From Minisyncoccota bacterium (GTDB taxonomy: Bacteria > Patescibacteriota > Minisyncoccia > SW-4-49-11), in NCBI GenBank assembly GCA_032117235.1, contig JAULZW010000005.1:31264-95263 (forward strand): a DNA stretch of 64,000 nt, read 5' to 3'. The translations under genes were made by a program, and so were the position numbers. The stretch's first letter is position 1. Each line of letters opens with the position of its first letter. Positions 1,277-38,609 of this stretch are shown piece by piece. The notes under the pieces are model-generated. The model did not search any database and was not told where the DNA came from. It saw only the letters and a list, made by a program, of their open reading frames with translations.

Positions 1277-1278
1277 AC

Positions 1279-2664: not shown

Positions 2665-2673
2665 ATTATTATC

Positions 2674-4506
2674 CTAAATTCCACTTATTACTTTATTGAT
2701 ACCAAAATCCTCAGGTTTATCATTGTCTTTTAGGTTCTGAATAGTGCTTGAAATTTTCTCAATTAGAGGTACTATGGTCTCAATTTCAGCTTCGGGAGTG
2801 TTCTTGAGTCTAGATATTTCTTCTCGGATTGGTAACTCTAATATGTCATTGGTCTCAACTTGGGTATCTTTTTTAGCTAATTCAGTAGCTTCTTTATGGA
2901 AGGTGAGCATAGCTTTTAGCATCAAATACATTTTGCGAGTGGAGGCAAAAGCATCAATTTCATCGAAGGCATTTTGTTGTAAATAATCTTCTCTTAGGCC
3001 ACGGGCAGTGTCTAGTAGAATTTTCTCCGAAGTGGAGAGTGCATCCATACCAACTAATTTAATAATATCATCAAGTTCATTTTCTTTTTGTAGAATTTGC
3101 ATAGCTAAGTCTCGTAATTCTTTCCAATCGGCATCGGTTTTATTTATAAAATATTCTTCCACATTTTCCTTATAAAGACTGTAACTATTAAGCCAATGAA
3201 TAGATGGGAAATGTTTTTTAGCAGCAAGAGAGGCATCTAATCCCCAAAAAGCTTTGGTCACTTTGAGGGTAGCTTGGCTAACAGGTTCGGATAAATCTCC
3301 TCCTGGAGGCGATACAGCTGCAATAATGGTGGCTGACCCAGTTCTTCCCTCAGAACCAAGAGTTGTCACAATACCCGCTCTTTCATAAAAAGCTGAAATT
3401 CGAGATCCAAGATAAGCAGGATATCCTTCTTCTCCGGGCATTTCTTCTAATCTTCCTGACATTTCACGCATAGCTTCAGCCCAACGAGAGGTAGAATCGG
3501 CCATCATAGCCACATTATATCCCATATCTCGATAATATTCAGCAAGAGTAATACCTGTATATACAGAGGCTTCACGAGCGGCAATTGGCATATTGGATGT
3601 ATTGGCTACAAGAATTGTTCTTTCCATCAATGGTCGGCCTGAATTTGGATCTTTAAGATGTGGGAATTCTACTAATACATCGGTAATCTCATTTCCTCTC
3701 TCTCCGCAGCCAACATAAACCACAACATCGGCATCTGACCATTTTGCCAATTGATGCTGAATAACTGTCTTTCCAGCTCCGAATGGTCCTGGTACGGCAG
3801 CCGCTCCTCCTTTGGGAATTGGGAAAAAGGTATCTATAATTCTCTGCTGGGTAATAAGTGGAGTAGTGGGGATTTGTTTAGCTTTGTATGGTCTTGGAGT
3901 TCGAACTGGCCATTTATGCATCAATTGTACAGATGTGTCTCCAATCTTAGCTACTGTCTCGGTAACAGTGAATTCTCCTGCTTTAATCTCAGTGATTGTT
4001 CCCTCAACTCCAAAAGGCACTAGAATTTTATGAGTGATTAGCTCAGTTTCTTGTACTGTTCCTAGTATATCTCCAGCTTGAACTTGAGCGCCTTTTTGTA
4101 CTGATGGCTTAAACTCCCATTTTATCTCTCTATCCAAACTAGGAGCTGTTAAACCTTTTGTTATATATTCAGAATTGAGACCTTGGGCAGCTGTTTTCTC
4201 GGCAATTACATTGAGTGGTCTTAAAATTCCATCAAATAATCCAGCAGTCAAAAGTCCTGGGCCTAACTCTATACTAAGGGGCTCTCCAGTAGAAACAACT
4301 GGTTCTCCAACTACCAATCCAGAAGTGTCTTCATAGACTTGAATAGAGGCGGTATTGCCTTTGAGTTCAATAATTTCTCCCATTAATTCTAAGTTTCCAA
4401 CTCTGACCAAATCATACATTTTAGCTCCAATCATAGAGTCAGCTATAACTAAGGGTCCTGAGATTTTGATAATAGTTCCGGTATTCATAGTCATTATTTT
4501 AATCAA
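2674..4506 (-). CDS. atpA: A/V-type ATP synthase catalytic subunit A
   Basis: 610 aa. Walker A GPFGAGKT. Conserved V1-A blocks [15 protein letters not shown] and [11 protein letters not shown]. Confidence 0.92.
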
Positions 4507-4826
4507 GAGGCGAATAATTTGTCTAGGCTCATCCCTACTGCTTTTTCGGTGAGATGTTTTAATTCCTCAACGGAATTACTATCTGAGCTAATAGGTAGCT
4601 GTGAGATAGGTATATTGAGTGAGTTCAAGACTTTTTTTTGTTTAGAGGTAAGAATTATATTGGAGGCTATAAATATAATAGCATACATTTCGGCATCTTT
4701 TTGAATAGTATCTATAATTTGGTCTATTTCTAATTCATTACTATTCAAAGTCTCAAATCCAAATAATTGAAATAAGAGATTAATGTCTGATTCAGCTATT
4801 ATAACTGGTTTTTTATAGTCTAACAT
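4503..4826 (-). CDS. atpF: A/V-type ATP synthase subunit F
   Basis: 107 aa with a subunit-F-like N-terminus ([19 protein letters not shown]). Position is between C and A, as in A-type operons. Confidence 0.6.
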
Positions 4827-5761
4827 ATATTGGAATAATCTATAAATCTTAATTTAGCTTGCTTGGAATCAAATTCCTTAGAATGCTGTAAAATCAGTAA
4901 TTTAAAGTTTGAAATAGCATATTGTAATCTCTCGGTATATTGAATAATTCTATCTCCGGACATACCGCTAAATTGAGCTCTATTTATGGTCTTGATTTCA
5001 TTTTTAATAAGGGTGTTTTCAATATTGATGGTATTTATATCTACAGGAGCTAAATTTAAATATTGACCAATATCTCCTAACACGTCTCCAAAACTAAATC
5101 CTTTTACCGCATTGATAGCCAAACTTCCTTGAATTGGTAATAAGTGTCGTAAAATATGTTCTTTAGATTGCCCTTTTTGAGTTCTAGCTAAAACATTGAG
5201 TAGGGTATAGCTATCTATTTTAGCTAAGACAAAGTCTCTCATAATATCACTACTATAGTCCAAATTTTCAAAAAGTAAGGTCAAGAATATCTCCTCTAAA
5301 TAGGAAATAATGCTAAAGCTATCTTTAGAGTGTATTAGCTTCTCTTCTTTAATTAGTAATTTTGTTTTAAACTTGGAGCCATAATATAGTTGAGTTGTCG
5401 TACCATCTAAAATCTGTTCAAATGATTTTTCTCCCAAATTTTCACCATAAATAGTTTTATTCAAAGCTAGGGTTTTTAATTTTTCAAAGTCTTTAGTAAG
5501 GGTTAAGTAAATAAAAGGAGATGTATTTTCTGGTAAAAGAGACAAGATTTCATCCAATTGTTTACTATAGTGATGATTTAGATTTGTAATAGCATTTCCT
5601 TGGTTAATATCTATCAATCCAAATGAATCTCGAATCATATTCAAAATAACATCAATATTACCTGTATTGAGTAAATTTTTGGTCTCAGTAGAAACGGGTA
5701 AATGCCCTAATCGAGAGACATATCTACTAGTAACACCAATTAGAGGAACTTGTAAACTCAT
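4820..5761 (-). CDS. atpC: A/V-type ATP synthase subunit C (V0 d-like)
   Basis: 313 aa soluble protein between E and F. Assigned mainly by operon position and size. Confidence 0.55.
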   Translation of the reverse strand: MSLQVPLIGVTSRYVSRLGHLPVSTETKNLLNTGNIDVILNMIRDSFGLIDINQGNAITNLNHHYSKQLDEILSLLPENTSPFIYLTLTKDFEKLKTLALNKTIYGENLGEKSFEQILDGTTTQLYYGSKFKTKLLIKEEKLIHSKDSFSIISYLEEIFLTLLFENLDYSSDIMRDFVLAKIDSYTLLNVLARTQKGQSKEHILRHLLPIQGSLAINAVKGFSFGDVLGDIGQYLNLAPVDINTINIENTLIKNEIKTINRAQFSGMSGDRIIQYTERLQYAISNFKLLILQHSKEFDSKQAKLRFIDYSNIC

Positions 5762-6294
5762 ATTTCCTTTATTACGGAGGCTAATGTTGTTTTTTTGACT
5801 TTATCCAAAATATCCTCAACAGTAATTTCTAGGCTGATATTCTCTAACTTGCCATTAATGGCCCCTAAATTAGAGTTTTGATTGCTTTTACTGTTTTTAT
5901 AGCCAAGACTTGAAATTATATCTTTTAATTCTTCGGTATATTTTCCAGTAATAGTTAAAGTTGTGTTCTGTGGGATACCCTGAAGAGTGTCTTGAATTAA
6001 AGTTTTGACAAAGTTAGAAGCTAGAATTTCTGGTAAAGATTCAATATAAATAACTTCTAATTGAGATTGTATAGCATAGCCAGAATTGAATTTACTAGTT
6101 TTACTGTTTTGGAATTTCTGAAAATTAACTTGAGTAGCAACGGCTTCTTCAATTTTTTCAGTATGTAGCTTTTTGGTCTCAGACAAAGCAGTATTCCATG
6201 TATCTTTGTTTTCTTTCAAGTCTGCTTTATATTGAGCTTCTAATTTCTCAATATCTTTATTCATCTGAGATTGTATTAAATCTGCTAAAGTCAT
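5758..6294 (-). CDS. atpE: A/V-type ATP synthase subunit E (peripheral stalk)
   Basis: 178 aa with a charged coiled-coil N-terminus and a globular C-terminus. Position after subunit K. Confidence 0.6.
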   Translation of the reverse strand: MTLADLIQSQMNKDIEKLEAQYKADLKENKDTWNTALSETKKLHTEKIEEAVATQVNFQKFQNSKTSKFNSGYAIQSQLEVIYIESLPEILASNFVKTLIQDTLQGIPQNTTLTITGKYTEELKDIISSLGYKNSKSNQNSNLGAINGKLENISLEITVEDILDKVKKTTLASVIKEI

Positions 6295-6296
6295 AT

Positions 6297-6776
6297 TTAT
6301 CCTACTGATACTCCGTTAATAATTAGAATAGAAACTAGCAATCCGAAAACAGCAAAAGTCTCTACTAAAGCGGCTAAGATAATTACTTGTCCAATCTTAG
6401 ATTTATCTCTAGCGATCAATTGAACTCCACTAGCAATTACATCACCCTGATATTTTCCAGAAGCTAAACAAGTAAGTCCTACAGGAATTCCAGCAAAAGC
6501 TAATATCATACCATTTTGCCAACTAACATTTGCAAACTCACCAGATAATACTCCAGTATTTTGCAGAATTAAAACAGCTGCTAAAAGACCATAAATAGCT
6601 TGTGATCCAGGCAGAGCTGATAATAAAAGTATATTCCCAAATTGAGAATCATCCTCAGCAACTAACCCAGCTCCAGTTTTACCAGCGGTAGAAACTCCGA
6701 TTGATGAGCCAGCTCCAGCTAAGCCGGCAGCTAGAGCAGCACCTAATACTGCTAAACTTATACCTAATACTTCCAT
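6297..6776 (-). CDS. atpK: A/V-type ATP synthase proteolipid subunit K (duplicated 4-TM c subunit)
   Basis: 159 aa and Gly/Ala-rich with four predicted TM helices (LAAGLAGAGSSIGVSTAGKTGAG). This matches a double-hairpin V-type c subunit. Confidence 0.85.
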   Translation of the reverse strand: MEVLGISLAVLGAALAAGLAGAGSSIGVSTAGKTGAGLVAEDDSQFGNILLLSALPGSQAIYGLLAAVLILQNTGVLSGEFANVSWQNGMILAFAGIPVGLTCLASGKYQGDVIASGVQLIARDKSKIGQVIILAALVETFAVFGLLVSILIINGVSVG

Positions 6777-6879
6777 ATATTCAACTTTAACTTTTAATTA
6801 GGGACAGAGCTTCTTACCACTGCTATCCTTTTCGCTATACTCCTAAATTTTTAAGAATATAATGAAAAAGATAACAGTA

Positions 6880-8916
6880 TTATTCAATAACACTATAATC
6901 TTGAGATCGAGAAACCTCCTGTAAGGGTCTTCCTCCAGATTGGAAGAATTTACTAAAGAATTCTACAAAGTGCAATCTACCTACATTGATATAAGTACCT
7001 AAGACATTCAGAGCAATATTAAATATATTTCCTGCTACAAAAATAACAATCATAATAATATATCCAATAACAATCCAAGCACCACCTTTTTCTACTAATC
7101 CGCTACCAGCTAGGTTTGCTAAGGTTCCTACTACTCCAGCAATAATTCCAGTTGCAAGACCTAGAGCAACTAACCTAGTATAAGATAGTATATCTGACAA
7201 ATATCCTACTACTCCAAAAAATACATCATAGGCTCCTTTACCAAACTTAGCAAATATAGACTTCATATCTCTACCCAAAAGATATATCATTGTAAATACA
7301 TAGCCAATATATATATATATCAGAGGATCAATGAGTAATTGAAGTCCATTTCCTAATAATCCAAAATTAATAAGCAATAATAATATTCCAAAGATCAAAG
7401 CTAAAGCCCAAAGAATAGAATCTAGACTAGCATCCCAGAATGACTTTTGATTGAATGCTTGTACAATGTTGAGAGATAACCCAAATAAAAGATGAATAAC
7501 TCCAAGTACAATAGTGAATCCCATCAAAGTAATTACACTGTCCATAGGATTGATAACTTGTAATTGCTGCAAGAAAGGAATTAGTCCAATACTAATTAAG
7601 AATTTCATATGAGGTGACGCTGTAGCAGGGTCAATTGCATCTGGAGTAATTCCAAACCAACTACCAAATAAAGCTCCTACAATCAAAGTAGAGATAGAAG
7701 CAATAAACACTACTGCAAAAATATCTCTTACACCTGATTTTAATCTAGAATTTAATAATCCAAGCCCAGTCAAAATAATTAGAATCAGCGCATATCCAGC
7801 CTCAGATAAAGCTAATCCGAACATAAAGGTGAAGAATATAGCAATAGATAAAGTCGGATCAATTTTGCCAGCCTGCGGATAACCCATAATTTTTGTTACA
7901 GTTTCAAAATGTCTTACAATAGGCAAGTTTTTGAATATAACTGGAGTGTCTTCAGATACAGATGGTAATTCTACAATTTTAATATCATTTGAAATGTCTA
8001 AAATATCTTTTTTATATAAATTAAACTTTTCTTCATCTACCCATAACTTTATAGAAGAATTTGTTTCAGATTCTGGATTAAAAGAATGTAAATAAGAAAT
8101 CAAATTTAGTTGAGAATTTAATACATCTGCTAAAATAGCCAAATCCTTGAGCTGAATAGGGGATTTTTTGAGCTCAAGATTTATTTTATTGATGATTTTG
8201 GCATTAACACTAAATTCTTGTTTACTTTTATGATAAATATCATAAAAAGATCCTGTAACTTCAGCTGGAAATTGAATGAAGGTAGCTTGATTTTGAATTA
8301 TATCTAGTCCAATTTTAACCTGATTTTTTGAAACGGCTAAAATATAAACATAATCAGTCCCAATTTTTTTAACAGACTCCAATACAATAGGAGATAAACT
8401 TTGCTCCAACTGCTCTACTAAATAATGGGCTCTAGATTCATCAACTAAAAATGGTAAAAATTTAATATAAGAATAGGGTTTAAAAATATTAAGTTCGATG
8501 TCTTTTAGAGGTTCTGATTTAGCAATAATATCTTGTAAAACTTCTTGTCTAGTTGTTAAATCATCTTTCAGTCCAGCTTTTTCTACAATCTCTTGAGCTT
8601 TTTTGATAATTTCTCCTTGCTCTGTATTATAATGTTCAAAAATGTCTTCAGTGATTAAAAATCTATCATCTAACACAGCTGAGAACATGGATTTTTTAAC
8701 AGTATGATACCCTTTGTATATATCCAAAGATTTATTTACTATATCTAGATTTTCTAATAGATCCTCTTGTTTATGTAAATAATTTTTAGCTAAAGGAGTT
8801 CTTTCTAGTTTTTCTATAATTTCTCCAACTTGACGCTTTTGAATATAAGCTAATAAGTTTAATTGAGTATTGTTTGGAACAGTGATTTGAATTAGTTTAG
8901 ACGCTTTAACTCCCAT
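6880..8916 (-). CDS. atpI: A/V-type ATP synthase subunit I (a-subunit, membrane)
   Basis: 678 aa with a soluble N-terminal half and a polytopic C-terminal half. Position between the atpH-like gene and K. Confidence 0.8.
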   Translation of the reverse strand: MGVKASKLIQITVPNNTQLNLLAYIQKRQVGEIIEKLERTPLAKNYLHKQEDLLENLDIVNKSLDIYKGYHTVKKSMFSAVLDDRFLITEDIFEHYNTEQGEIIKKAQEIVEKAGLKDDLTTRQEVLQDIIAKSEPLKDIELNIFKPYSYIKFLPFLVDESRAHYLVEQLEQSLSPIVLESVKKIGTDYVYILAVSKNQVKIGLDIIQNQATFIQFPAEVTGSFYDIYHKSKQEFSVNAKIINKINLELKKSPIQLKDLAILADVLNSQLNLISYLHSFNPESETNSSIKLWVDEEKFNLYKKDILDISNDIKIVELPSVSEDTPVIFKNLPIVRHFETVTKIMGYPQAGKIDPTLSIAIFFTFMFGLALSEAGYALILIILTGLGLLNSRLKSGVRDIFAVVFIASISTLIVGALFGSWFGITPDAIDPATASPHMKFLISIGLIPFLQQLQVINPMDSVITLMGFTIVLGVIHLLFGLSLNIVQAFNQKSFWDASLDSILWALALIFGILLLLINFGLLGNGLQLLIDPLIYIYIGYVFTMIYLLGRDMKSIFAKFGKGAYDVFFGVVGYLSDILSYTRLVALGLATGIIAGVVGTLANLAGSGLVEKGGAWIVIGYIIMIVIFVAGNIFNIALNVLGTYINVGRLHFVEFFSKFFQSGGRPLQEVSRSQDYSVIE

Positions 8917-15387: not shown

Positions 15388-16389
15388 TCAAATTGACTTA
15401 CCTCTTATTTTACGAAATATATTATATAAATTAAAAATAAATCTTTTATGAATAAAAATTTGGCTACTTGGGTAATCAATAGTCTTTCCTCCAAACTGCA
15501 TTTTGAATTTTGAGATTCCCTGCCAAGATTTTTTTGTAGTAGATACTCCCCAAAAGTCATAGATTTTTTTACCAAGATTTTTAGCTTCCAAAATAGATTG
15601 CCATTGAAGAAGTGGTGGAGCCATTAGGTTGCGATATTGATTGCTAGAAGCTCCATGTAAATAAATTCTTTGATCCAAGGTATCCAAGATGATATTGGTG
15701 GCTAAAACATTATCTTCATACTCAGCTATAATTAAAGATACTTCAATCTCATCTAAATCATTTTTTAATATATTTTTGTAATGTTTCTTGGAATGAATAG
15801 CAAATTTCCCTCTTTGGCTGGTATCTTTCATTAAATTAAAGAATATATCAAAGTATTTATTAAATTCAGGATGTTTGTTGGGTATGGTTTTAATTTCAAC
15901 GCCTTTTTTTTGAGCTAATTTAATATTATATCTCATTTTAGAATGCATATTTTTTAATAAATCATTTTCTGATAGATTTAAATCTAATATTTGAGTTTGA
16001 TGGGGTAGTCTTTCTAATTCACTAGGTTGGGTATATTTCTTAAAAATCTGACTATAATCATGATATATATCTTGAGCTGGCTCAATTAAAGTAAATATTG
16101 CATTATACTTTTGGGCTATTTCTTTCATATTATCCCAAAATTCTTGAATTATCTCTTGAGATATATTTGTTGAGTATAAAATCGGCCCTCTCGGTATATG
16201 TAATTGAGTGTATTTTGAAATTAAATTATAAACATAAACTTGAGCAAAGATTACAGTATGACCATCTTTATTATTTATAACAACTCTTTCTACGGCAAGA
16301 TAATCTTTGCTAATTAATTCTGCCCAATCTAATAGTTGATAGTACTCGGATATATTGTTTGCGAATTTCTGATCAGCTGATAATATCAT
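15388..16389 (-). CDS. FemAB-family peptidoglycan bridge aminoacyltransferase
   Basis: FemA/FemX-like blocks RYNIKLAQKKGVE and LHGASSNQYRNLMAPPLLQW. The start is set at the internal MILSADQ, which overlaps the upstream gene by ATGA. Confidence 0.65.
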   Translation of the reverse strand: MILSADQKFANNISEYYQLLDWAELISKDYLAVERVVINNKDGHTVIFAQVYVYNLISKYTQLHIPRGPILYSTNISQEIIQEFWDNMKEIAQKYNAIFTLIEPAQDIYHDYSQIFKKYTQPSELERLPHQTQILDLNLSENDLLKNMHSKMRYNIKLAQKKGVEIKTIPNKHPEFNKYFDIFFNLMKDTSQRGKFAIHSKKHYKNILKNDLDEIEVSLIIAEYEDNVLATNIILDTLDQRIYLHGASSNQYRNLMAPPLLQWQSILEAKNLGKKIYDFWGVSTTKKSWQGISKFKMQFGGKTIDYPSSQIFIHKRFIFNLYNIFRKIRGKSI

Positions 16390-17345
16390 ATTAGATGAGG
16401 TTCTAATGTTGTCGCTATTTCCATAACTTCTTCCATAGAACTTAATCCATTTACAGATCCTATTTCTCTTAGTACTGATGAGGATTGTATAATACCCCAT
16501 TTTAGAGCTTGTGACAAATCGTTAGATTGAATAAAACTAGCTAAAAAACCAGCTGCAAAGGCATCTCCAGCTCCAGTGGTTTCTAGTTTTTTAACTATTC
16601 TTGCTGGTAAATATAGGGTGTTATTACTGTTGCTTACATAAGCTCCATTATTACCATCAGTAATAGCTACAATTTTGGCTCCCAGACTGTGTAATCCTTT
16701 AATTAAATTAGCCACATCCTCATCAGTATTATTGATAATATATTGAGCCTCCTCCTTATTCACGAATAAAATTTCAGTTTTCGGTACAATTTGATGAATT
16801 AAATCTAAATTATACTTTAACAAATAAGATCCCGGGTTTAAAACTAATTTATAACTATTAGAATTAGCTAGTATATTATCTAATATAGTCTCTGAACCCT
16901 TGCTAAGAGAGGTAATATATAGCCATTCGCTTGTAGGTAAGTTTAAATTAGTATAATCCTTTGGCTGATGATGAGAAAAAACTATTCTCTCCCCATTGAT
17001 AGATAAAATTGTCGATTGATTAACTCCAGAATTAACTGTTTTGACTATATGTTCAGTATTGAGATTAAGATTATTTATAGAGTCTATAATATAATTTGAT
17101 AAATTATCCTCTCCAATTGAGGATACTAAAGCTGTATTTATACCGAGTAAGCTTAACCCATAAGTTATATTATAGGCATTTCCACCAATAGAATCATAAA
17201 CTTGCGAAACTGGAACTTTATGTCCAATTTCTAAGTTCAAAATAAAGTTACCAGGATTAGAAGGGGAGGGTAATATAGGTATATCTGGAGCTAATAAAAA
17301 TCTATCAAGGGCAATGTCTCCAATTACAATACATTGATAATTCAT
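16386..17345 (-). CDS. PfkB-family carbohydrate kinase (ribokinase-like)
   Basis: C-terminal anion-hole motif TTGAGDAFAAGF and an N-terminal GG dipeptide region. Length 319 aa. Confidence 0.8.
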   Translation of the reverse strand: MNYQCIVIGDIALDRFLLAPDIPILPSPSNPGNFILNLEIGHKVPVSQVYDSIGGNAYNITYGLSLLGINTALVSSIGEDNLSNYIIDSINNLNLNTEHIVKTVNSGVNQSTILSINGERIVFSHHQPKDYTNLNLPTSEWLYITSLSKGSETILDNILANSNSYKLVLNPGSYLLKYNLDLIHQIVPKTEILFVNKEEAQYIINNTDEDVANLIKGLHSLGAKIVAITDGNNGAYVSNSNNTLYLPARIVKKLETTGAGDAFAAGFLASFIQSNDLSQALKWGIIQSSSVLREIGSVNGLSSMEEVMEIATTLEPHLI

Positions 17346-17358
17346 ATTAATTTATTAT

Positions 17359-17793
17359 TTAAGGATTAATAATAATAGCTCTGTCTGTGGCATTAAGCAC
17401 CTCAAACTCAATTTTAGTGTGATATATGCTTTTCCATAGGTTTGGAGTTTTGCTAGCCCATTCTACTAATAATATGTTATGTGGGTTTTGTAATAAATCC
17501 ATAATGCCTAAATTTAAAACCTCCCATTCTTGCTCTAATCGATATAAATCTAAATGATAAACTTTAAATTTTGAATTTGGTATTAGATAAGTTTTCATAA
17601 TCACAAAAGTAGGACTAGTGACATTTTGTATAACTCCCAATCCCGCTAAAAAACCTTGACTAAAAGTAGTTTTTCCACCACCTAGCTCACCTTCTAATAA
17701 AACTAAATTAGCTCTTTTAGTTGCTAGAATTTCCTGAGCAATATTTGTGGCTAAGTCTTTAGTTTCATTTACAGATTTAGATATAATCTCCAT
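17359..17793 (-). CDS. tsaE: tRNA t6A biosynthesis ATPase TsaE (YjeE)
   Basis: 144 aa with P-loop LEGELGGGKTTF. Size and motif are typical of TsaE. Confidence 0.8.
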   Translation of the reverse strand: MEIISKSVNETKDLATNIAQEILATKRANLVLLEGELGGGKTTFSQGFLAGLGVIQNVTSPTFVIMKTYLIPNSKFKVYHLDLYRLEQEWEVLNLGIMDLLQNPHNILLVEWASKTPNLWKSIYHTKIEFEVLNATDRAIIINP

Positions 17794-17800: not shown

Positions 17801-20800
17801 TTATAATACTTTTATTCCTAGCACTCTTTCCAGCTCCGCAAAATCAGTTGTATGATCTAATACCTTTAGAATACCAGAAACTTCTAAAGTTGTCATGCCT
17901 TCCTCAATAGCCAACTTTTTAATATTAGAGGTGGAAGCATTAGCTATAATAGTCTCCTTGATTTTAGGAGTCAGCACTAACACTTCAAATATAGCGGTAA
18001 TTCCATTATATCCATTAGGGTGATCTGGACTTTCATTAGACTTAAGAATAGTGTCAGGGATTTGACTATGATATCTTTCTGGTAATTTAGATTTTATAAT
18101 ATCTTTTTGTTCATTAGAAAGAGTAATAGTGATTGCATTGGCAGGATCTATCTTTCTAATAATTCTTTGAGCTATAGTTACATTAACAAAAGTAGCTATC
18201 TCAGATATACCAATTCCGAGATCATATAGTCTTAATATTGCTGACGCTGCATCATTGGTATGTAGAGTAGATAGTAATAAATGTCCAGTGGCTGCAGTTT
18301 GCATAGCTACCTTAGCTGTTTCTGTATCTCTTATCTCTCCAATTAAGACTATATTTGGATTCTGCCTTAACAGAGCTCTAATAGCATTAGGAAAGCTATA
18401 CCCCGTCGCTTCATTTACACTAGTCTGTAAAATGCCAGATAATTTGTATTCAATAGGGTCTTCTATAGTTATTATTTTGACACCAGGTTGATTAAGCGCA
18501 TTAAGAGTTGCATAGAGAGTAGTAGATTTACCAGCGCTAGTAGGTCCTGTTACTAAAATTAGTCCTGTAGTAGCTTGGAGTTGGTCTTGTAACAAGTTTA
18601 TATTATATATATCCATTCCTAAATCATGTAATTTGAGCTTAGCAATATCGGAGCGTAATATTCTCATAACTATGGTCTGACCATAACCTCCTGGAATTAT
18701 AGAAACTCTCACATCAAAATTTTTATCACTAAATATAGTAAAGCGACCCTCTTGAATATTGTTGGCAATATCCAAAGGTAATCCAGAGAAAATTTTAATT
18801 TGATTTAAAATTTGAGGATATAAAGACTTTGGTACACGAGCTTCTTCATATAAAACCCCATCAATTCTAAATCTAATAATCAATTCAGTCATATCAGGTT
18901 CAAGGTGAATGTCGGTAGCTCTTTTATTTAAAGCAGTATTGGTAATAGCTGTTAATTGATCCTGGATAGACATTGACTCAGATATATGAGTAATCTCAGG
19001 TGTAGGAGTCTCTGATTTTTTAATATGAATTCCACGAGATAAGGCAGAAGTCAAAGTAGATTCATAAATTTCATCTATATAAGATATATCTCCTGCAACA
19101 GACAATACTTCTTCTATAGAAGTTTCACCGTCTATTACATGCAAAACTCCATCTTGAAATAGGGTTATCATTCCATTTTCAATAGCTTTCCTAAATACTT
19201 TAAACTCAGGAGTCCCGTTGATAATTAAATCTTTAACATTATCACGAGTCTCAAATAATTCATATAAAGCTAGTCTTCCTTTATATCCAATTCCATAACA
19301 TTTCTCACATCCTTTGGGACGATATAATTTATTGATTTTTTGTGGAATGGTTAAGTTGGATTTAGGAGATATAATAGCTAATGCTTTTTTTATAGAATCT
19401 AATTCCTGTTCTGTAGGAATATATTCTTCTTTACAGTCACAAAATTTTCTTACCAATCTTTGAGCCACAAAAAGATTCATCGCTGAAATTATTAATTGTG
19501 GACTGGAACCAAATTCTTTAAGTCTAGTAATAATACCCACTGAATCATTTGTATGAATAGTAGAAAATACCAAATGCCCAGTTATGGCAGCATTCATAGA
19601 TATACTGGCAGTATCATTATCTCGAACTTCTCCAATCATAATTACATCAGGATCTTGTCTTACAATAGCTTTTAACCCATTAGCAAAGGTATAGCCTTTT
19701 TTTGCATCAACTTGAGTTTGATTAATATTTTGTAATCTATACTCAATTGGATCTTCAATGGTAATAATATTAGTTTCAGTTCTGTTTACGTAATTAAGAA
19801 AAGAGTATAGACTGGTAGTTTTTCCCGAACCAGTAGGTCCAGATAACATAATCATACCCTGAGGCTTGTCGAGATTTCTAACTATAATATCTAAAAAAGT
19901 CTCTCTAATACCAAAACTATAAATATCTAGATTGTGAATTTCTGTATTGAGAAGTCTCATTACAATAATCTCACCAGTTTTGCTAGGTAAAATTGAAACC
20001 CTTACATCAATTGACTGGTTTATATTGCTAGAATTCTCTTTTATAATAATACTAAATCTACCATCTTGAGCAGTAGTCTTTACGTTTAATACAAGAGAAG
20101 CTAAATTTTTTACTCTTGAGATTAATAATTTATACATTTCATTGTCAAAATTCAAAATATCCTGTAAAACTCCATCTATGCGATATCTAAGTCTAGTAAT
20201 ATCACCTTTTGGTTCTATATGTATGTCACTAGCTAAAGAAGAAATAGCCCCGGCACAAATGATTTGCATTAATTCGGAAGTTTCAACTGAATTAATTTTG
20301 TGAGCAAAATCTTCTAAAGCAATAACACTTTGCTTAACTTCTTGTAGCATCTGAAGTGGTATTATGAGGTTGTCTTTTACCACCTCACTTCTTTCCTGTA
20401 AAAATTCATATGCATTATATCCCTTCTCTAAGCTATATCCCGAGACCAGATATAAATCTACTTCATAATTACTTTGATATAATTTTTGCAATATAATTTT
20501 AGCTATAGAGTTATTTATATCTTGTAGGGCTACTTTTAGATTTAATCCAGACCTTTGAAAAATTATCATCTGGGCTTTTTTGGCCTGTTCTTGACTTAGT
20601 ATTTTAAGGGCATCTGGGTTAATTGGAACAAGTTTTAGATTGAGATAAGCCATCCCAAGCTCATTTGCCAATCTTTGAGTTAGTAACTCTTCTTCCCTTT
20701 TATGAATGGCAGCTAAGTTTAAGTCTACTACTTTATCTGAATGTAGTTTGTTTCTAAAACTTTGACGATTATAATTTTTTTGTTTTAGTATTGAACTCAT
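17801..20800 (-). CDS. tandem-duplicated PilB/GspE-family secretion ATPase (two complete modules in one polypeptide)
   Basis: Module 1 has Walker A SGPTGSGKTT, Asp box IITIEDPIEY, Walker B DVIMIGEVRD, His box GHLVFSTIHTND and a tetracysteine CDC...CEKC. Module 2 has TGPTSAGKSTT, IITIEDPIEYKL, IVLIGEIRDTE and GHLLLSTLHTNDA without the cysteines. There is no stop between the modules. Confidence 0.85.
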   Translation of the reverse strand: MSSILKQKNYNRQSFRNKLHSDKVVDLNLAAIHKREEELLTQRLANELGMAYLNLKLVPINPDALKILSQEQAKKAQMIIFQRSGLNLKVALQDINNSIAKIILQKLYQSNYEVDLYLVSGYSLEKGYNAYEFLQERSEVVKDNLIIPLQMLQEVKQSVIALEDFAHKINSVETSELMQIICAGAISSLASDIHIEPKGDITRLRYRIDGVLQDILNFDNEMYKLLISRVKNLASLVLNVKTTAQDGRFSIIIKENSSNINQSIDVRVSILPSKTGEIIVMRLLNTEIHNLDIYSFGIRETFLDIIVRNLDKPQGMIMLSGPTGSGKTTSLYSFLNYVNRTETNIITIEDPIEYRLQNINQTQVDAKKGYTFANGLKAIVRQDPDVIMIGEVRDNDTASISMNAAITGHLVFSTIHTNDSVGIITRLKEFGSSPQLIISAMNLFVAQRLVRKFCDCKEEYIPTEQELDSIKKALAIISPKSNLTIPQKINKLYRPKGCEKCYGIGYKGRLALYELFETRDNVKDLIINGTPEFKVFRKAIENGMITLFQDGVLHVIDGETSIEEVLSVAGDISYIDEIYESTLTSALSRGIHIKKSETPTPEITHISESMSIQDQLTAITNTALNKRATDIHLEPDMTELIIRFRIDGVLYEEARVPKSLYPQILNQIKIFSGLPLDIANNIQEGRFTIFSDKNFDVRVSIIPGGYGQTIVMRILRSDIAKLKLHDLGMDIYNINLLQDQLQATTGLILVTGPTSAGKSTTLYATLNALNQPGVKIITIEDPIEYKLSGILQTSVNEATGYSFPNAIRALLRQNPNIVLIGEIRDTETAKVAMQTAATGHLLLSTLHTNDAASAILRLYDLGIGISEIATFVNVTIAQRIIRKIDPANAITITLSNEQKDIIKSKLPERYHSQIPDTILKSNESPDHPNGYNGITAIFEVLVLTPKIKETIIANASTSNIKKLAIEEGMTTLEVSGILKVLDHTTDFAELERVLGIKVL

Positions 20801-21049
20801 AAATATAAGAATATATAATTATATTATACCATAATATGTTAAAAACAATAAATAGTAATTTTTTTAAAAGATGAGTATTTAGTATAAATGGTTACAGTAT
20901 AGATAGATTAAATATAATATATTACTATCTATTTTATATATAGACATATGGTCTATGATCAAACGACATAGCTTATTTAAACCGCAACCTAACAAGCACT
21001 TAGTTTTTATTCTGGTAAGTCTCTATAAAATATGTTATTATTAATTAAT

Positions 21050-27543: not shown

Positions 27544-28095
27544 TTAATTATTAAGTAATGCAGTAATTTTATTTTGAGGGAAATATTTCATAACAATATG
27601 CCAGACTGGTTTACGGTATTCATGTAGAAATTTCTCAATTTTATCTTGTGAAACCCATAAAAATCCACCCAACTCTCTACGGTCTACTTTAATTGACTGG
27701 GTGCTACCATTGTATTTAAGTAACATAATAGTTTGTTCTTGTCCTAAATTCTCGTCTCGAATAAGTCTCTTAGGGAAATAAAAGGTATGTTTTTCTGGGC
27801 ATTTATCTAAAATTGTAAAATCAGTAGTATTTAACTCCTCCCCCAACTCTCTTATAATTGCTTCCTCATTAGTTTCATTCTCATTAACTCCACCCTGAGG
27901 AAACTGCCAATGCAAAGGGTCATTTGCTCTAGATACAATTAATACATTTTCATCTTTATCAAATATTATTGCTAGTACATTTTTCCTTAGTTTACCATAG
28001 GACATATATTTTAAAATTAAACCATTATCATAATTATATGTATTATAGCTTATATTTAGTATTTTGTATACAACATAAGTATTTTTATTAGACAA
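27544..28095 (-). CDS. Nudix hydrolase
   Basis: Nudix box GGVNENETNEEAIIRELGEELN (G-x5-E-x7-REUxEExGU pattern). It sits 8 nt upstream of proS on the same strand. Confidence 0.8.
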   Translation of the reverse strand: MSNKNTYVVYKILNISYNTYNYDNGLILKYMSYGKLRKNVLAIIFDKDENVLIVSRANDPLHWQFPQGGVNENETNEEAIIRELGEELNTTDFTILDKCPEKHTFYFPKRLIRDENLGQEQTIMLLKYNGSTQSIKVDRRELGGFLWVSQDKIEKFLHEYRKPVWHIVMKYFPQNKITALLNN

Positions 28096-31570: not shown

Positions 31571-32329
31571 ATGGCTTACACCTTAGTTTTAATGCGACAT
31601 GGAGAAAGTTTATGGAATCAATTGGATAAATTTACTGGTTGGACAGATGTAGAGTTGTCTGACAAAGGTATTCAAGAAGCAAAAGCAGCAGGTTTAGTAT
31701 TGTTTCAAAATGGATTTGAATTTGATTTTGCATATACTTCCGTATTGGACAGAGCTATAGATACCTTGCAATATGTCTTAGAAGGAGCTCATATGACTTG
31801 GATTCCAGTTACAAAAGACTGGCACCTTAATGAAAGGCATTATGGAGGCTTACAGGGTAAAAATAAAGATGAAGCTGTAGATGAATTCGGTGAGTATCAA
31901 GTGAAAGTTTGGAGAAGGACATTTGCTATTAAGCCTCCATTGCTATCAGAATATGACTCTAGATATCCTGCTAATGATGATAGATATACTAACATACCAA
32001 CAGAACAGTTGCCTATTGGGGAATCTCTTAAAGATACTTTAGATAGAGTGCATCCGTATTGGGAGACAGAATTAAAGCCAGCTATTCTTTCTGGAAAAAG
32101 GCTTATTATATCAGCTCATGGCAATAGTTTAAGAGCTTTATTGAAGTTTTTAGAAAATATTTCAGATAAAAAAATTATTGATATAGAAATACCAACTGGT
32201 AATCCATTAATATATGAACTAGAAGAGAATACTTTAAAGGTTTTAAAAAAGTATTATTTAATGGGTAATACAATTAAAAATAATAAAAATATATTTAGTA
32301 AATTTAAATCTATTTTTAAATTAAATTAA
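31571..32329 (+). CDS. gpmA: 2,3-bisphosphoglycerate-dependent phosphoglycerate mutase
   Basis: Histidine phosphatase motif LMRHGESLWN, and a second His region ISAHGNSLRAL. Confidence 0.85.
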   Translation: MAYTLVLMRHGESLWNQLDKFTGWTDVELSDKGIQEAKAAGLVLFQNGFEFDFAYTSVLDRAIDTLQYVLEGAHMTWIPVTKDWHLNERHYGGLQGKNKDEAVDEFGEYQVKVWRRTFAIKPPLLSEYDSRYPANDDRYTNIPTEQLPIGESLKDTLDRVHPYWETELKPAILSGKRLIISAHGNSLRALLKFLENISDKKIIDIEIPTGNPLIYELEENTLKVLKKYYLMGNTIKNNKNIFSKFKSIFKLN

Positions 32330-32332
32330 ATT

Positions 32333-33013
32333 ATGTCAAAAATTATTTTAGTAAGACATGGAGATAGTCAATGGGACCAAGAAAATAGATATATAGGTTG
32401 GATAGATGTTCCTTTATTAGAACAAAGGGATGAATTAAAAAAAATTGGGAACACATTACTTAATAATAACACAGATATAGACATAATTATTACTTCAGTG
32501 CTAGAAAGATCAATTGTCAGTGCTTGGACTATTATGAACAGTATGTATCATTCCTGGATTCCAGAAATACATGACTGGAGATTAAACCCAAGACATTATG
32601 GAGTAATACAAGGTTTAACTTATCAAGATGTATTGGTAAAATATAATAATATTAACGAAATTAATCTGAGTTGGGATAAAACTGTTAGCCCAATTACATT
32701 AGATGATAAAAGTCATCCTAAGTATGATAGAAGATATGCTACTATATCGCCAGAGAGTTTACCTTCTGTGGAAAGTTTAAAGGATGTTTATGAAAGGGTG
32801 GAGAGTTTCATTGTAGATACATTATTACCTATTTTGTCTAGAAATGAGAATATTCTAATTGTAGCCCATCATGATAGTATAAGATCTATATTAAAATATT
32901 TTGAAAAATTATCGATTGAAGATACTATTAAATTTAATATTAATCCTTCTCAAGCTATAGTAATAAATTATGATTATAATACGGGCTTATCTACACAGAC
33001 AGTATTTGAATAG
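32333..33013 (+). CDS. histidine-phosphatase (dPGM-like) paralogue, divergent
   Basis: LVRHGDSQWDQENRYIGW and VAHHDSIRSI. It lies directly downstream of gpmA. Confidence 0.7.
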   Translation: MSKIILVRHGDSQWDQENRYIGWIDVPLLEQRDELKKIGNTLLNNNTDIDIIITSVLERSIVSAWTIMNSMYHSWIPEIHDWRLNPRHYGVIQGLTYQDVLVKYNNINEINLSWDKTVSPITLDDKSHPKYDRRYATISPESLPSVESLKDVYERVESFIVDTLLPILSRNENILIVAHHDSIRSILKYFEKLSIEDTIKFNINPSQAIVINYDYNTGLSTQTVFE

Positions 33014-37906: not shown

Positions 37907-38176
37907 TTATATGACAGAAACAGTTTTAACCATTTTTTTCTTTCCAGTAAAAGATGTTTTACGAGTGTCTTTAAATGCAATAACACCATTAGCTATAGAA
38001 TACAAAGTATCATCAGCTCCTCGGGCTACATTTGATCCAGGATAAAATTTGGTTCCTCTTTGTCTAATAATAATTTGTCCTTTTTCTACTTTTTGTCCAG
38101 CATATAATTTAACTCCAAGATATTTTGGATTTGAGTCTCGTCCTAATGCTGTAGAACCACCAGCTTTTCTATGTGC
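37907..38176 (-). CDS. rpmA: 50S ribosomal protein L27
   Basis: [24 protein letters not shown] matches the L27 N-terminus. The longer ORF-track start is an upstream extension. Not paired with rplU here. Confidence 0.85.
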
Positions 38177-38216
38177 CATATCGAATATTATTACTATATA
38201 TGATATAATAATACAT

Positions 38217-38609
38217 ATGAAACACAAATTTGTCAAGCATATTGAGGGTTTTTTACTAATTATTTCAGCTATACTAATAGGTGGCAGTGCCTATCTTATT
38301 GGGAATATTAATGCTCTTGAATCTAATCTGAGTGAAATACAGGTTGTTTATCCAGATTCTATTGCTATTAAATCTGATACCAAGATTGAGGAAATTAAGT
38401 CAAATAAAGACATAATTATACCTACTGATAATAAAACTTCTACCATATCTACGGGTAAAATAATAGCTAGTAAAAATGGGAAAAGATATTATTATCAAAA
38501 TTGTGCTGGCATTAATAGGATTAAACTAGAAAATCGTATATACTTTGAAACAAAGGAGCAAGCTGAGTTGAAGGGCTTAACTCTTGCTTCAGGATGTAAA
38601 GAATTATGA
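38217..38609 (+). CDS. membrane-anchored hypothetical protein
   Basis: Start set at the internal MKHKFV. One TM helix. The C-terminal block [41 protein letters not shown] is unassigned. Confidence 0.35.

What the first reader, a model, noticed from the sequence alone, without database searches (positions are those of the whole stretch)
17801..20800. Single 999-aa protein with two complete PilB/GspE secretion-ATPase modules
Both halves carry the full motif set: the N-terminal ATPase core IHIEP/IHLEP…RFRIDGVL, Walker A, Asp box IITIEDPIEY, Walker B and His box. Only the first half keeps the tetracysteine zinc motif. No stop or frameshift separates them. PilB/GspE ATPases normally work as homohexamers of single-module subunits. 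A covalent pseudo-dimer would force a trimer-of-dimers ring with intrinsically asymmetric sites, and the degenerate second module hints at subfunctionalisation. No pilin, pilC or pilM genes are adjacent, so this ATPase is an orphan.
Basis: seen in the sequence. Interest (0 to 1): 0.65.

Follow-up and report, generated by a model that had tools for sequence, protein, structure and literature searches.

The report
Covalently doubled orphan PilB pilus ATPase
This gene from an ultrasmall (Patescibacteria/CPR) bacterium really does encode two complete pilus-motor ATPase units in one chain; the design is conserved in a small group of these bacteria and appears undescribed in the literature searched, and it would force the normally six-subunit motor ring to be built from alternating, non-identical units.

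Summary
Window 17801-20800 (-) is one uninterrupted 999-aa ORF laid out as N1 - [N2D-CTD] - linker - [N2D-CTD]. Both modules are PilB/GspE-type, and neither is PilT-like. It is not an assembly artefact: the halves are 34-36% identical, share no DNA repeat, and the ~1,000-aa layout recurs in more than 100 protein clusters from independent assemblies, down to 40% identity.

The "degenerate second module" reading is only partly right. Every catalytic residue is invariant in both modules across 112 relatives, and module 2 is as conserved as module 1. Only its zinc site is gone. That loss is specific to this clade, because 86 of 112 relatives keep four cysteines in module 2.

The "orphan" status is real and turns out to be the main new result. 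The protein belongs to a CPR-wide paralogue group, here called class B. These genes sit among PolA/TsaE/DHH/RuvB/YebC/RuvC and have no PilC within 10 kb in 0 of 17 loci. Canonical CPR PilBs sit in PilM…PilB-PilT-PilC-pilin clusters. Class B occurs with one, two or (once) three modules.

Most likely function: a trimer forming one six-module ring of alternating modules that matches a trimeric PilC platform encoded elsewhere. The oligomeric state and the partner are inferred, not shown. This is a new variant of a known kind.

The parts
17801..20800 (-). Whole ORF, 999 aa plus stop: doubled PilB/GspE-family ATPase (class B orphan)
20387..20800 (-). N1 domain (residues 1-138), GSPII_E_N/MshEN-like; one copy per chain
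   Evidence: The MshEN hit covers residues 48-98 and is weak (E 0.0015, 18.9 bits, below the 23.1 cut-off). TIGR02538 PilB aligns across residues 24-569. MshEN is called in relatives. The AF2 model is folded here, pLDDT 80-90.
20276..20386 (-). Linker 1 (residues 139-175) between N1 and module 1
   Evidence: Low conservation; pLDDT dips at residues 135-142.
19901..20275 (-). Module 1 N2D (residues 176-300), containing DIHIEP and RYRIDG
19091..19900 (-). Module 1 CTD (residues 301-570): Walker A 19814-19840, Asp box 19739-19768, Walker B 19619-19642, His box 19547-19582
19298..19441 (-). Module 1 tetracysteine zinc motif (C454, C456, C498, C501)
   Evidence: Invariant in 112 of 112 relatives.
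18968..19090 (-). Inter-module linker (residues 571-611): conserved helix YIDEIYESTLTSALS (Y579 invariant), a short strand, then about 20 flexible residues
18608..18967 (-). Module 2 N2D (residues 612-731), containing DIHLEP and RFRIDG
17804..18607 (-). Module 2 CTD (residues 732-999): Walker A 18521-18547 (GPTSAGKST), Asp box 18446-18475, RQNPN plus Walker B 18326-18349, His box 18254-18289
18020..18148 (-). Former zinc site of module 2 (D885, N888, S924, H927), with all four Cys ligands replaced; still predicted to be folded
17359..17793 (-). tsaE, 7 nt downstream on the same strand with no terminator between; the one neighbour shared with class B loci of other CPR lineages
20801..21031 (.). 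231-nt AT-rich divergent intergenic region between the ATPase and pgk; presumed promoter region (TGgTATAAT-like element about 25 nt upstream of the ATG)
   Evidence: The number of promoter-like matches is not above chance.

Best explanation
This is a genuine, expressed-as-one-chain, doubled type IV filament extension ATPase. Its layout is N1 - [N2D-CTD with Zn site] - 41-residue linker - [N2D-CTD without Zn site].

It belongs to a Patescibacteria-wide paralogue group, here called class B. This group is phylogenetically and syntenically separate from the canonical PilB of the PilM…PilB-PilT-PilC-pilin clusters. Class B genes are always encoded away from pilus genes, among PolA/TsaE/DHH/RuvB/YebC/RuvC. 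Within class Minisyncoccia (Moranbacterales and the window's clade) the ATPase core was doubled once, long ago.

Shown:
- Both modules keep every catalytic residue and are under equally strong constraint, so both most likely bind and hydrolyse ATP.
- Module 1 is the conservative copy and module 2 the slightly derived one (family-wide RQNPN in place of RQDPD; in this clade also loss of the zinc site).

Inferred:
- Three chains assemble into one six-module ring with strictly alternating M1/M2. The ring would carry three N1 anchors and, in this clade, three zinc sites.
- This pseudo-hexamer has intrinsic C3 rather than C2/C6 symmetry.
- It would dock chain for chain (3:3) on a trimeric PilC/GspF-type platform. 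That platform is itself an internal duplication presenting six alternating Cyto1/Cyto2 domains to six N2Ds.
- It drives pilin polymerisation for a type IV pilus or competence-type filament whose other parts are encoded elsewhere in the genome. This resembles TfpB, the second extension motor of Acinetobacter baylyi, which is also encoded away from pilC.
For: Real gene and real fusion:
- Uninterrupted ORF.
- More than 100 full-length homologue clusters of 984-1055 aa, at 88% down to 40% identity, from independent NCBI, JGI, ENA and Logan assemblies.
- Identical synteny in a relative at 78% identity.
- 13 double-length representatives in the library clustered at 50% identity.
- Modules 34-36% identical with no DNA repeat between them.

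Both modules are extension-type:
- Best solved relative is M. xanthus PilB for both (1.4e-96 and 1.6e-75), against PilT at about 1e-28.
- Fold TM 0.92 to G. metallireducens PilB.

Both modules are competent:
- Walker A G/K/T, Asp-box E/E, Walker B G-E-x-R and His-box H/H are invariant or nearly invariant in both modules of 112 sequences and in all 13 distant representatives.
- Within-clade identity: M2 N2D 88.5% and CTD 85.7%, against M1 85.2% and 86.3%.
- Only 5 positions are fixed differently between the modules.

Single origin:
- M1 is monophyletic in 82% of bootstraps and M2 in 61%.

Class B:
- The 11 single-module CPR proteins that cluster with M1 and M2 (68% bootstrap) are exactly the ones in the PolA/TsaE/DHH/RuvB/YebC/RuvC context.
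- PilC lies within 10 kb in 0 of 17 class B loci, but beside most other PilBs sampled.
- Class B singles score about 75 bits higher than other PilBs on both module HMMs.

One six-module ring:
- Orthologues exist with 1, 2 and 3 modules (431-699 aa, about 1,000 aa, 1,460 aa), and all three numbers divide six.
- A C3 'ocococ' ring has been solved for family members PilT4 and PilU (PMC6858323).
- PulF is modelled as a trimer with six alternating Cyto domains, each binding one N2D, at 6:3 stoichiometry (PMC10790770).

Orphan second extension motor as precedent:
- TfpB (PMC8213720).
- TM7x has a third PilB/GspE ATPase outside its two T4P loci (bioRxiv 10.1101/2022.03.25.485537).
Against: - The oligomeric state was not tested. 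The AF2 monomer has confident domains (pLDDT 84) but pTM 0.51, so the relative position of the two modules is undetermined. No multimer prediction was available.
- Tandem RecA-like or AAA+ ATPases such as KaiC, p97 and EccC usually form stacked rings, not alternating single rings (own knowledge).
- No PilC, pilin, PilM or prepilin peptidase was found in the 64 kb window plus 10 kb. I could not show that the genome has them at all.
- The conserved DNA-repair and recombination neighbourhood could point to a different substrate.
- The PulF trimer and the 6:3 complex are AlphaFold-based models supported by crosslinking, not solved structures.
- The three-module protein is known from a single contig.
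- The phylogeny is neighbour-joining only, and the deep order (whether M1 and M2 are sisters) is unresolved (16% bootstrap).
Confidence: 0.55

Rival explanations
1. Stacked double ring. Six chains assemble so that the six module 1 units form one hexameric ring, which carries the N1 domains and contacts the membrane platform. The six module 2 units form a second ring stacked beneath it, as in KaiC, p97/NSF, ClpB or EccC. The second tier would add power or regulation.
For: - This is the usual outcome of tandem duplication in ring ATPases (own knowledge).
- Only module 1 carries an N1 anchor domain.
- The 41-residue linker with about 20 flexible residues could span either geometry.
- The zinc site, reported as essential in single-module enzymes (PMC11656802), could be dispensable in a ring that never touches the platform.
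Against: - In this family the ring is held together by N2D(n)-CTD(n+1) packing, and both N2Ds are equally conserved.
- In the PulE6:PulF3 model every N2D contacts a platform Cyto domain, so a distal ring would leave six conserved N2Ds without a partner.
- One-, two- and three-module orthologues fit a constant six-module ring more economically than one, two or three tiers.
- No direct test was possible.
Confidence: 0.2
2. Not a pilus motor. The class B ATPase, single or doubled, has been recruited to another task, for example DNA uptake or translocation, or secretion linked to the DNA-repair and recombination genes that always flank it. It would work without a PilC platform.
For: - PilC or PilM lies within 10 kb in 0 of 17 class B loci.
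- Synteny with PolA, a DHH phosphoesterase, RuvB, YebC and RuvC is conserved from Saccharibacteria to Parcubacteria.
- Class B is a long-stemmed separate clade.
- CPR bacteria depend on imported DNA and nucleotides and are naturally competent (PMC10633639).
Against: - Sequence and fold are those of a bona fide PilB, including the N1 domain, the N2D arginines and, ancestrally, the zinc site.
- TsaE and bPH_2 in the same neighbourhood have no link to DNA, so the synteny may simply be frozen housekeeping gene order in small genomes.
- In two Saccharibacteria, a PilB-PilC-pilin-PilM cluster lies beside TsaE/RuvB (L057, L058). This suggests the locus is a stripped-down former pilus cluster.
- TfpB shows that an unlinked PilB paralogue can still serve the pilus.
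Confidence: 0.15
3. Module 2 is a degenerating, catalytically dead regulatory or scaffold module. The ring would then have three active and three inactive sites, like the alpha subunits of F1.
For: - Loss of all four zinc ligands.
- Variant Walker A GPTSAGKS in this clade.
- Family-wide D-to-N change in RQDPD.
- Singles score about 25-30 bits lower against the M2 profile than the M1 profile.
Against: - The P-loop still fits GxxxxGK[ST].
- K758, E780, E784, E822, R824, H840 and H847 are invariant or nearly invariant in 112 sequences and in 13 distant representatives.
- Module 2 is as conserved as module 1 within the clade.
- The region that replaced the zinc site is confidently folded.
Confidence: 0.07
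4. Artefact. The ORF would be two ordinary tandem pilB genes joined by a sequencing or assembly error, or a collapsed duplicate.
For: None found.
Against: - The same uninterrupted ~1,000-aa ORF occurs in more than 100 clusters from four data sources and in GTDB genome L006.
- The linker contains a conserved helix with an invariant Tyr.
- The halves are only 34-36% identical with no DNA repeat.
- The one apparent M2-only protein (P0148) is a contig-edge fragment.
Confidence: 0.01

Closest known systems
Canonical type IVa pilus extension ATPase PilB (M. xanthus 3JC8; G. metallireducens 5TSG/5TSH/6OLJ) and T2SS GspE/EpsE
   Same: - Each module has the N2D + CTD fold (TM up to 0.92).
- Each module has all four nucleotide-binding motifs.
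- The first 570 residues align end to end with the PilB equivalog model.
- An N1 domain and, in module 1, a CxC...CxxC zinc site are present.
   Different: - Two ATPase cores in one chain, so a homohexamer of identical sites is impossible.
- One N1 domain per two cores.
- Module 2 has lost the zinc site, which is reported as essential in EpsE.
- The gene is not linked to pilC, pilM or pilD.
- It belongs to a separate CPR-specific clade.
TfpB, the second extension motor of Acinetobacter baylyi (PMC8213720)
   Same: A PilB paralogue that is phylogenetically distinct from canonical PilB. It is not co-transcribed with pilC and coexists with a canonical PilB, yet it acts on the same pilus machine. 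This is the best functional analogy for an orphan class B ATPase.
   Different: - TfpB is single-module and gammaproteobacterial.
- The window protein scores 636.6 bits against the TfpB model, below the 850 cut-off, so it is not a member.
- The analogy concerns role only.
PilF of Thermus thermophilus (5IT5, 6F8L)
   Same: An enlarged PilB (about 890 aa) that serves both pili and DNA uptake. It shows that the family tolerates large N-terminal expansions.
   Different: PilF multiplies the N-terminal GSPII/MshEN domains and has a single ATPase core. Here the ATPase core itself is doubled.
Platform protein PulF/GspF/PilC (internal duplication; modelled trimer) and TadB/TadC (PMC10790770)
   Same: - A ring of six pseudo-equivalent domains built from three chains with two repeats each, or from a trimer of heterodimers in Tad.
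- This is the same trimer-of-pseudo-dimers logic proposed here for the motor, and PilC is its presumed partner.
   Different: A different protein family (a membrane protein, not an ATPase). Its trimeric state rests on models plus crosslinking.
Rings with alternating non-identical subunits (F1/V1 alpha3-beta3) and tandem-domain stacked rings (KaiC, p97, EccC)
   Same: They are precedents for the two possible assemblies of a doubled ring ATPase.
   Different: They are not homologous at the family level and are comparisons from general knowledge only. In F1 the alternate sites are non-catalytic, whereas here both sites look catalytic.

Membership tests
T2SSE / PilB-GspE secretion ATPase superfamily (Pfam PF00437) | Significant match to the family profile | tested here: met
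   PF00437 at 677.8 bits against a cut-off of 24.9, in two stretches. Each module on its own matches solved PilB at 1e-75 to 1e-96.
T2SSE / PilB-GspE secretion ATPase superfamily (Pfam PF00437) | Walker A, Asp box, Walker B (GE) and His box in the CTD | tested here: met
   Present in both modules. Invariant across 112 relatives and 13 distant representatives.
T2SSE / PilB-GspE secretion ATPase superfamily (Pfam PF00437) | N2D + CTD bilobed fold | tested here: met
   AF2 pLDDT 84. Foldseek TM 0.88-0.92 to 5TSH, 5OIU and 5ZFR.
PilB/GspE extension subclass (as opposed to PilT retraction subclass) | Closer to PilB/GspE than to PilT; N-terminal N1 (GSPII_E_N/MshEN) domain | tested here: met
   PilB/GspE at 1e-66 to 1e-96 against PilT at about 1e-27 to 1e-30, for both modules. 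TIGR02538 aligns across residues 24-569. The Pfam MshEN hit itself is sub-threshold here (18.9 against 23.1 bits), but the domain is called in relatives.
PilB/GspE extension subclass | Tetracysteine zinc-binding motif in the CTD (reported essential in EpsE) | tested here: not met
   Met in module 1 (C454, C456, C498, C501; 112 of 112). Not met in module 2 of this clade (D885, N888, S924, H927). Module 2 has CCCC in 86 of 112 relatives.
PilB/GspE extension subclass | One ATPase core per polypeptide, assembling as a homohexamer | tested here: not met
   Two cores per chain. The oligomeric state itself could not be tested with these tools.
Canonical T4aP PilB or T2SS GspE (equivalog level, TIGR02538 / TIGR02533) | Score above the curated equivalog cut-off | tested here: inconclusive
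   753.3 against 675.65 (PilB) and 772.6 against 630.25 (GspE). These whole-protein scores sum two modules, and both models pass, so they neither discriminate nor prove equivalence.
Canonical T4aP PilB or T2SS GspE (equivalog level) | Genomic linkage to pilC/gspF, pilM or gspL, pilD and pilins | tested here: not met
   None in the 64 kb window plus 10 kb. PilC lies within 10 kb in 0 of 17 class B loci, whereas it is adjacent in canonical CPR loci.
Canonical T4aP PilB or T2SS GspE (equivalog level) | Drives pilus or endopilus assembly through a PilC/GspF platform | not testable with these tools
   Needs genetics or biochemistry. The presence of PilC elsewhere in this genome could not be established.
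TfpB (NF053534) | Score above the curated cut-off | tested here: not met
   636.6 bits against a cut-off of 850.
CPR class B orphan PilB paralogue group (defined here) | Clusters with the PolA/TsaE/DHH/RuvB-linked CPR ATPases rather than with PilC-linked PilBs | tested here: met
   In the NJ tree M1, M2 and 11 class B singles form one clade (68% bootstrap). Class B singles score about 75 bits higher on the module HMMs than other PilBs.
CPR class B orphan PilB paralogue group (defined here) | Conserved housekeeping synteny (TsaE, DHH, PolA, RuvB, YebC, RuvC) | tested here: inconclusive
   The Moranbacterial doubles have the full set. The window's clade keeps only TsaE; the other neighbours are replaced by PGK, PfkB, FemAB and VanW.

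The most novel reading that the evidence does not exclude
The class B ATPases, and the doubled form in particular, are not auxiliary pilus motors. They would be the engine of a so far unrecognised Patescibacteria-specific machine, for example a DNA or nucleotide import or export device functionally tied to the flanking PolA/DHH/RuvB/YebC/RuvC genes. The covalent M1-M2 pair would enforce an obligate alternating-site (C3) catalytic cycle not used by any characterised PilB, GspE or PilT motor.
Probability: 0.12. Interest if true: 0.85.

Novelty: new variant of a known kind. Interest (0 to 1): 0.6.

Why it matters
**A natural test case for the motor mechanism.** PilB, GspE and PilT motors are among the strongest molecular machines known, and how they work is argued largely from ring symmetry. 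PilB has been solved as C2 'ccocco', while PilT and PilU have also been solved as C3 'ocococ' and as C6. A natural protein in which neighbouring ring positions are covalently different cannot have true C2 or C6 symmetry. It therefore shows what the motor really needs, much like the linked-subunit constructs that engineers build for other ring ATPases.

**What the zinc-site loss implies.** This clade lost the zinc site, reported essential in single-module enzymes, from every second position while keeping that module under strong constraint. If the alternating-ring model is right, three zinc domains per ring are enough, which gives a handle on what that domain does.

**Fit with the platform model.** The match between a doubled motor and the internally duplicated, reportedly trimeric PilC/GspF platform supports the 6:3 platform model and predicts a 3:3 complex.

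**An unstudied paralogue in CPR bacteria.** Type IV pili are essential for the episymbiotic lifestyle of these bacteria. This work shows that a third, unlinked PilB paralogue is conserved from Saccharibacteria to Parcubacteria, and it is unstudied even in the genetically tractable TM7x and Southlakia systems.

Tried and rejected
- **PilB-PilT fusion (bifunctional extension and retraction motor):** rejected. Both modules are PilB/GspE-type.
- **Recent duplication or assembly collapse:** rejected.
- **Split-gene variant (P0148, M2 alone):** it is a contig-edge fragment.
- **Doubled T2SSE proteins outside CPR:** none were found. Among 80 species-genome loci, several long tblastn matches in Planctomycetota, Actinomycetota and others turned out to be two adjacent genes or long N-terminal extensions. 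Only the Moraniibacteriota locus was a true double.
- **Regex counting of tetracysteine motifs:** it undercounted because spacer lengths vary. I replaced it with alignment columns.
- **Pilus genes on the rest of the 145 kb source contig:** the left flank was obtained and contains none. Three right-end proteins are not on record under their exact sequence.
- **M2 deriving from the 431-aa N1-less class B singles:** not supported. The singles lack the linker helix and score better against the M1 profile.
- **Literature searches for tandem, fused or duplicated PilB/GspE:** searches in general and in Patescibacteria papers found no description of the architecture. The library does not include most subscription journals.
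- **AF2 monomer model:** it does not resolve the inter-module geometry (pTM 0.51).
- **Promoter and terminator scan:** nothing above chance.


Full report
**1. Observation**

Window 17801-20800 on the minus strand is a single ATG-initiated ORF of 999 codons with no internal stop. Pfam finds the T2SSE secretion-ATPase domain twice (E 3.9e-204). NCBIfam PilB, GspE and ComGA models also match in two stretches.

- Walker A at residues 321 and 752.
- Asp box IITIEDPIEY at 345 and 776.
- Walker B at 387 and 818.
- His box at 407 and 838.
- N2D motifs DIHIEP…RYRIDG and DIHLEP…RFRIDG.

The CxC…CxxC zinc motif (C454, C456, C498, C501) exists only in the first module. The aligned positions of the second module are D885, N888, S924 and H927.

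The layout is N1 (1-138), linker (139-175), module 1 N2D+CTD (176-570), linker (571-611, nt 18968-19090), and module 2 N2D+CTD (612-999). The first 570 residues are a complete, full-length PilB; TIGR02538 aligns 24-569 to model positions 30-562 of 564. Module 2 is a second core without its own N1.

**2. Not an artefact**

- The halves are 34-36% identical in protein (E 1e-80). They share no DNA repeat beyond one 19-nt chance match, so a collapsed recent duplicate is excluded.
- The same uninterrupted ~1,000-aa architecture is found in more than 100 clusters (90% identity level) from NCBI, JGI, ENA and Logan assemblies. These run from 88% down to 40% identity at 95-100% coverage and are named Minisyncoccia, Moranbacteria or Parcubacteria where named.
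- A relative at 78% identity on a 167 kb contig has the same gene in the same neighbourhood.
- The linker holds a conserved helix with an invariant tyrosine (Y579).
- In a library of 1.84 billion representatives at 50% identity there are 13 double-length representatives, against 13,739 relatives at E ≤ 1e-30. The architecture is therefore real, old and rare.
- The one hit that looked like module 2 alone is a contig-edge fragment.

**3. What the modules are**

Both modules are extension-type. The best solved relative of each is M. xanthus PilB (1.4e-96 and 1.6e-75), followed by GspE and PilF, with PilT only near 1e-28. This is not a PilB-PilT fusion.

The AlphaFold2 model has mean pLDDT 84.2. 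It superposes on G. metallireducens, G. sulfurreducens and T. thermophilus PilB with TM 0.88-0.92. Its pTM is only 0.51, so the relative placement of the two modules is not predicted with confidence.

**4. Is module 2 degenerate? No**

- In an alignment of 112 family members, all catalytic residues are invariant or nearly invariant in both modules. These are the Walker A G, K and T, the Asp-box glutamates, the Walker B G-E-x-R, and both His-box histidines. The same holds in the 13 distant representatives.
- Within the window's own clade, module 2 is as conserved as module 1: N2D 88.5% against 85.2%, and CTD 85.7% against 86.3%.
- Only five positions are fixed differently in the two modules family-wide. 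The clearest is RQDPD in module 1 against RQNPN in module 2.
- All single-module relatives score 16-49 bits better against a module 1 profile than a module 2 profile. Module 1 is therefore the conservative copy and module 2 is mildly derived.

The zinc-site loss is clade-specific. Of the 112 aligned sequences:
- Module 2 has all four cysteines in 86 (the Moranbacteria-type clade, 40-43% identical to the query).
- It has two cysteines in the four sequences at 50-56% identity.
- It has none in the 22 sequences at 60% identity or more (the query plus 21 relatives).

All class B single-module relatives but one have CCCC. The replaced region is still confidently folded in the model. A recent review states that this zinc motif is essential for function in single-module enzymes (PMC11656802, citing work on EpsE), so its loss from a strongly constrained module is the most distinctive feature of this clade.

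**5. The orphan status is real and is a family trait**

Pfam scans of about 40 ORFs across the window found no T2SSF/PilC, PilM/N/O, prepilin peptidase or N-methyl pilin. Two pilin-signal scans found none, and 10 kb beyond the left end has none. The gene heads a co-directional string of tsaE (7 nt downstream, no terminator), pfkB, femAB, vanW and cysS, and is divergent from pgk.

Moranbacterial doubles also have no pilus genes within 10 kb. They lie in the order PolA < TsaE < DHH > [ATPase] > RuvB > bPH_2 > LTD > YebC > RuvC.

I clustered all ORFs of 87 fetched loci without supervision and labelled the clusters with Pfam. CPR genomes show two kinds of PilB locus:
- **Class A** is the canonical type: PilM…PilB (~575 aa)-PilT (~355 aa)-PilC-pilin, or PilB-PilC…PilM.
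- **Class B** is the orphan type, in the PolA/TsaE/DHH/RuvB/YebC/RuvC context. PilC lies within 10 kb in 0 of 17 loci.

Class B comprises:
- The doubles.
- N1-bearing singles of 546-699 aa in Saccharibacteria, Doudnabacteria and unclassified Patescibacteria.
- N1-less singles of 431-437 aa in Nealson-, Staskawicz- and Wildermuthbacteria.

The same 11 singles are exactly those that group with modules 1 and 2 in the module tree (68% bootstrap). They also score about 75 bits higher than other PilBs on both module profiles. Synteny and phylogeny therefore agree: class B is a CPR-wide paralogue group, and the double is one state of it. The window's clade has reshuffled the neighbourhood and keeps only tsaE.

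The TM7x transcriptome paper lists a third PilB/GspE ATPase, TM7x_02335, outside both T4P loci. The TM7x pilus study does not mention it. I infer, but did not verify, that it is the class B orthologue, which would show that classes A and B coexist in one genome.

**6. Origin of the doubling**

Module 1 sequences are monophyletic in 82% of bootstraps. Module 2 sequences, together with the third module of P0028, are monophyletic in 61%. This indicates a single origin of the fusion.

An exclusive sister relationship of M1 and M2 has only 16% support. Tandem duplication within class B and fusion of two class B paralogues therefore cannot be told apart with neighbour-joining. In Moranbacteria the two modules are still 52% identical, against 36% here.

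One protein, P0028 (1,460 aa, one JGI contig, same synteny), has three complete modules that are 46-59% identical to each other.

**7. How it most likely works**

Shown:
- One chain carries two catalytically intact PilB cores and one N1.
- The architecture is conserved.
- The gene is unlinked to pilus genes.

Inferred: three chains form one ring of six modules with alternating M1/M2. Four arguments support this:
- The family's ring is built from N2D(n)-CTD(n+1) contacts, and both N2Ds are equally conserved.
- Orthologues have one, two or three modules, all divisors of six. This is the pattern expected if the six-module ring is the constant (6×1, 3×2, 2×3).
- C3 'ocococ' rings have been solved for PilT4 and PilU alongside the C2 'ccocco' ring of PilB (PMC6858323), so an alternating state is physically accessible to the fold.
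- The platform PulF/GspF/PilC is itself an internal duplication. It is modelled, with crosslinking support, as a trimer presenting six alternating Cyto1/Cyto2 domains, each bound to one N2D (6:3). TadB/TadC are proposed to form a trimer of heterodimers (PMC10790770).

A trimer of doubled ATPases would pair with such a platform chain for chain. It would also allow N2D-1 and N2D-2 to specialise for Cyto1 and Cyto2. The ring would carry three N1 anchors and, in this clade, three zinc domains.

The partner machine is presumably a type IV pilus or competence-type filament encoded elsewhere. The precedent is TfpB of A. baylyi, an unlinked, phylogenetically distinct second extension motor that acts on the same pilus as PilB (PMC8213720).

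I give this composite model 0.55. Its components differ in strength:
- Real, conserved, doubly active ATPase: above 0.9.
- Single alternating ring: about 0.55-0.6.
- Works with a PilC platform: about 0.6-0.7.

**8. Rivals**

- **Stacked double hexamer (0.2).** This follows the KaiC, p97 and EccC precedent and fits N1 being present only on module 1. It would leave six conserved N2Ds without a platform partner.
- **A non-pilus role tied to the flanking DNA-processing genes (0.15).** The synteny is striking, but it also includes TsaE and bPH_2. In two Saccharibacteria a PilB-PilC-pilin-PilM cluster abuts TsaE/RuvB (L057, L058), which suggests a stripped-down former pilus locus.
- **Dead regulatory module 2 (0.07).** Contradicted by the invariant catalytic residues.
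- **Artefact (0.01).**

**9. Novelty and score**

Ten literature look-ups found no description of a doubled PilB or GspE, nor of the class B orphan. They covered tandem, fused and duplicated PilB/GspE, Patescibacteria T4P papers, the 2024 PilB review, and the TM7x and Southlakia genetics papers. Database records call these proteins simply 'GspE/PulE family protein' or 'PilB'. Most subscription journals are not in the library searched, so absence from it is not proof that nothing has been published.

The thing itself belongs to a very well known family, so I rate it a new variant of a known kind with interest 0.6. A pilus-motor specialist would find a natural covalent pseudo-dimer with a half-lost zinc site a useful and somewhat surprising test case for the symmetry and stoichiometry debate. 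The conserved orphan paralogue matters for CPR biology. No new biochemical principle has been demonstrated yet.

Noticed in passing
L004 10001-14383 (protein P0028): A 1,460-aa version of the same ATPase with three complete modules (Walker A at residues 314, 761 and 1211). The modules are 46-59% identical to each other, and the gene sits in the same TsaE-DHH-[ATPase] synteny. It is known from one JGI contig only.
   Followed up: partly
window 33071-36049 (+): A leucyl-tRNA synthetase of 992 aa with a NUDIX hydrolase domain (residues 394-494, Pfam E 7e-12) inserted just after the editing domain. A separate NUDIX gene lies at 27544-28095.
   Followed up: no
window 662-8916 (-): A complete V/A-type rotary ATPase operon in a Patescibacteria genome: subunit I, a double-hairpin c subunit, three unannotated small subunits, then A, B and D.
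   Followed up: no
window 38049-44132 (+): A TrwB/VirD4-like coupling ATPase (807 aa, 41709-44132). It follows three ORFs with no Pfam hit (38049-38609, 38606-39436 and 41239-41700) and a PMT-family glycosyltransferase (39440-41230). It may be part of the monoderm-type T4SS described for Patescibacteria (PMC12102498).
   Followed up: no
L057 and L058 (Saccharibacteria genomes): A PilB-PilC-pilin-PilM cluster without PilT lies directly beside TsaE, and in L058 also beside bPH_2 and RuvB. These are the marker genes of the orphan class B locus, which suggests the orphan locus is a stripped-down former pilus cluster.
   Followed up: partly
L086 1-205: In a relative at 78% identity, a 413-aa protein combines a pilin-type N-methylation signal (weak hit) with an FGE-sulfatase domain. 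It lies about 10 kb from the doubled ATPase. At the corresponding place the window has recA instead.
   Followed up: no
window 15388-16500 and 16386-17345 (-): The FemAB-family ORF as listed overlaps the upstream pfkB ORF by 115 nt. The orthologue in L086 is 329 aa rather than 370 aa, so the true start is probably further downstream.
   Followed up: no
window 31571-33013 (+): Two adjacent paralogous histidine-phosphatase (His_Phos_1) genes lie directly downstream of recA.
   Followed up: no
L021, L022, L023, L026, L034: Parcubacterial class B ATPases of only 431-437 aa. They lack the N1 domain entirely but keep the zinc motif, and they occupy the same TsaE-DHH-[ATPase]-RuvB-YebC-RuvC slot as the doubles.
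   Followed up: partly
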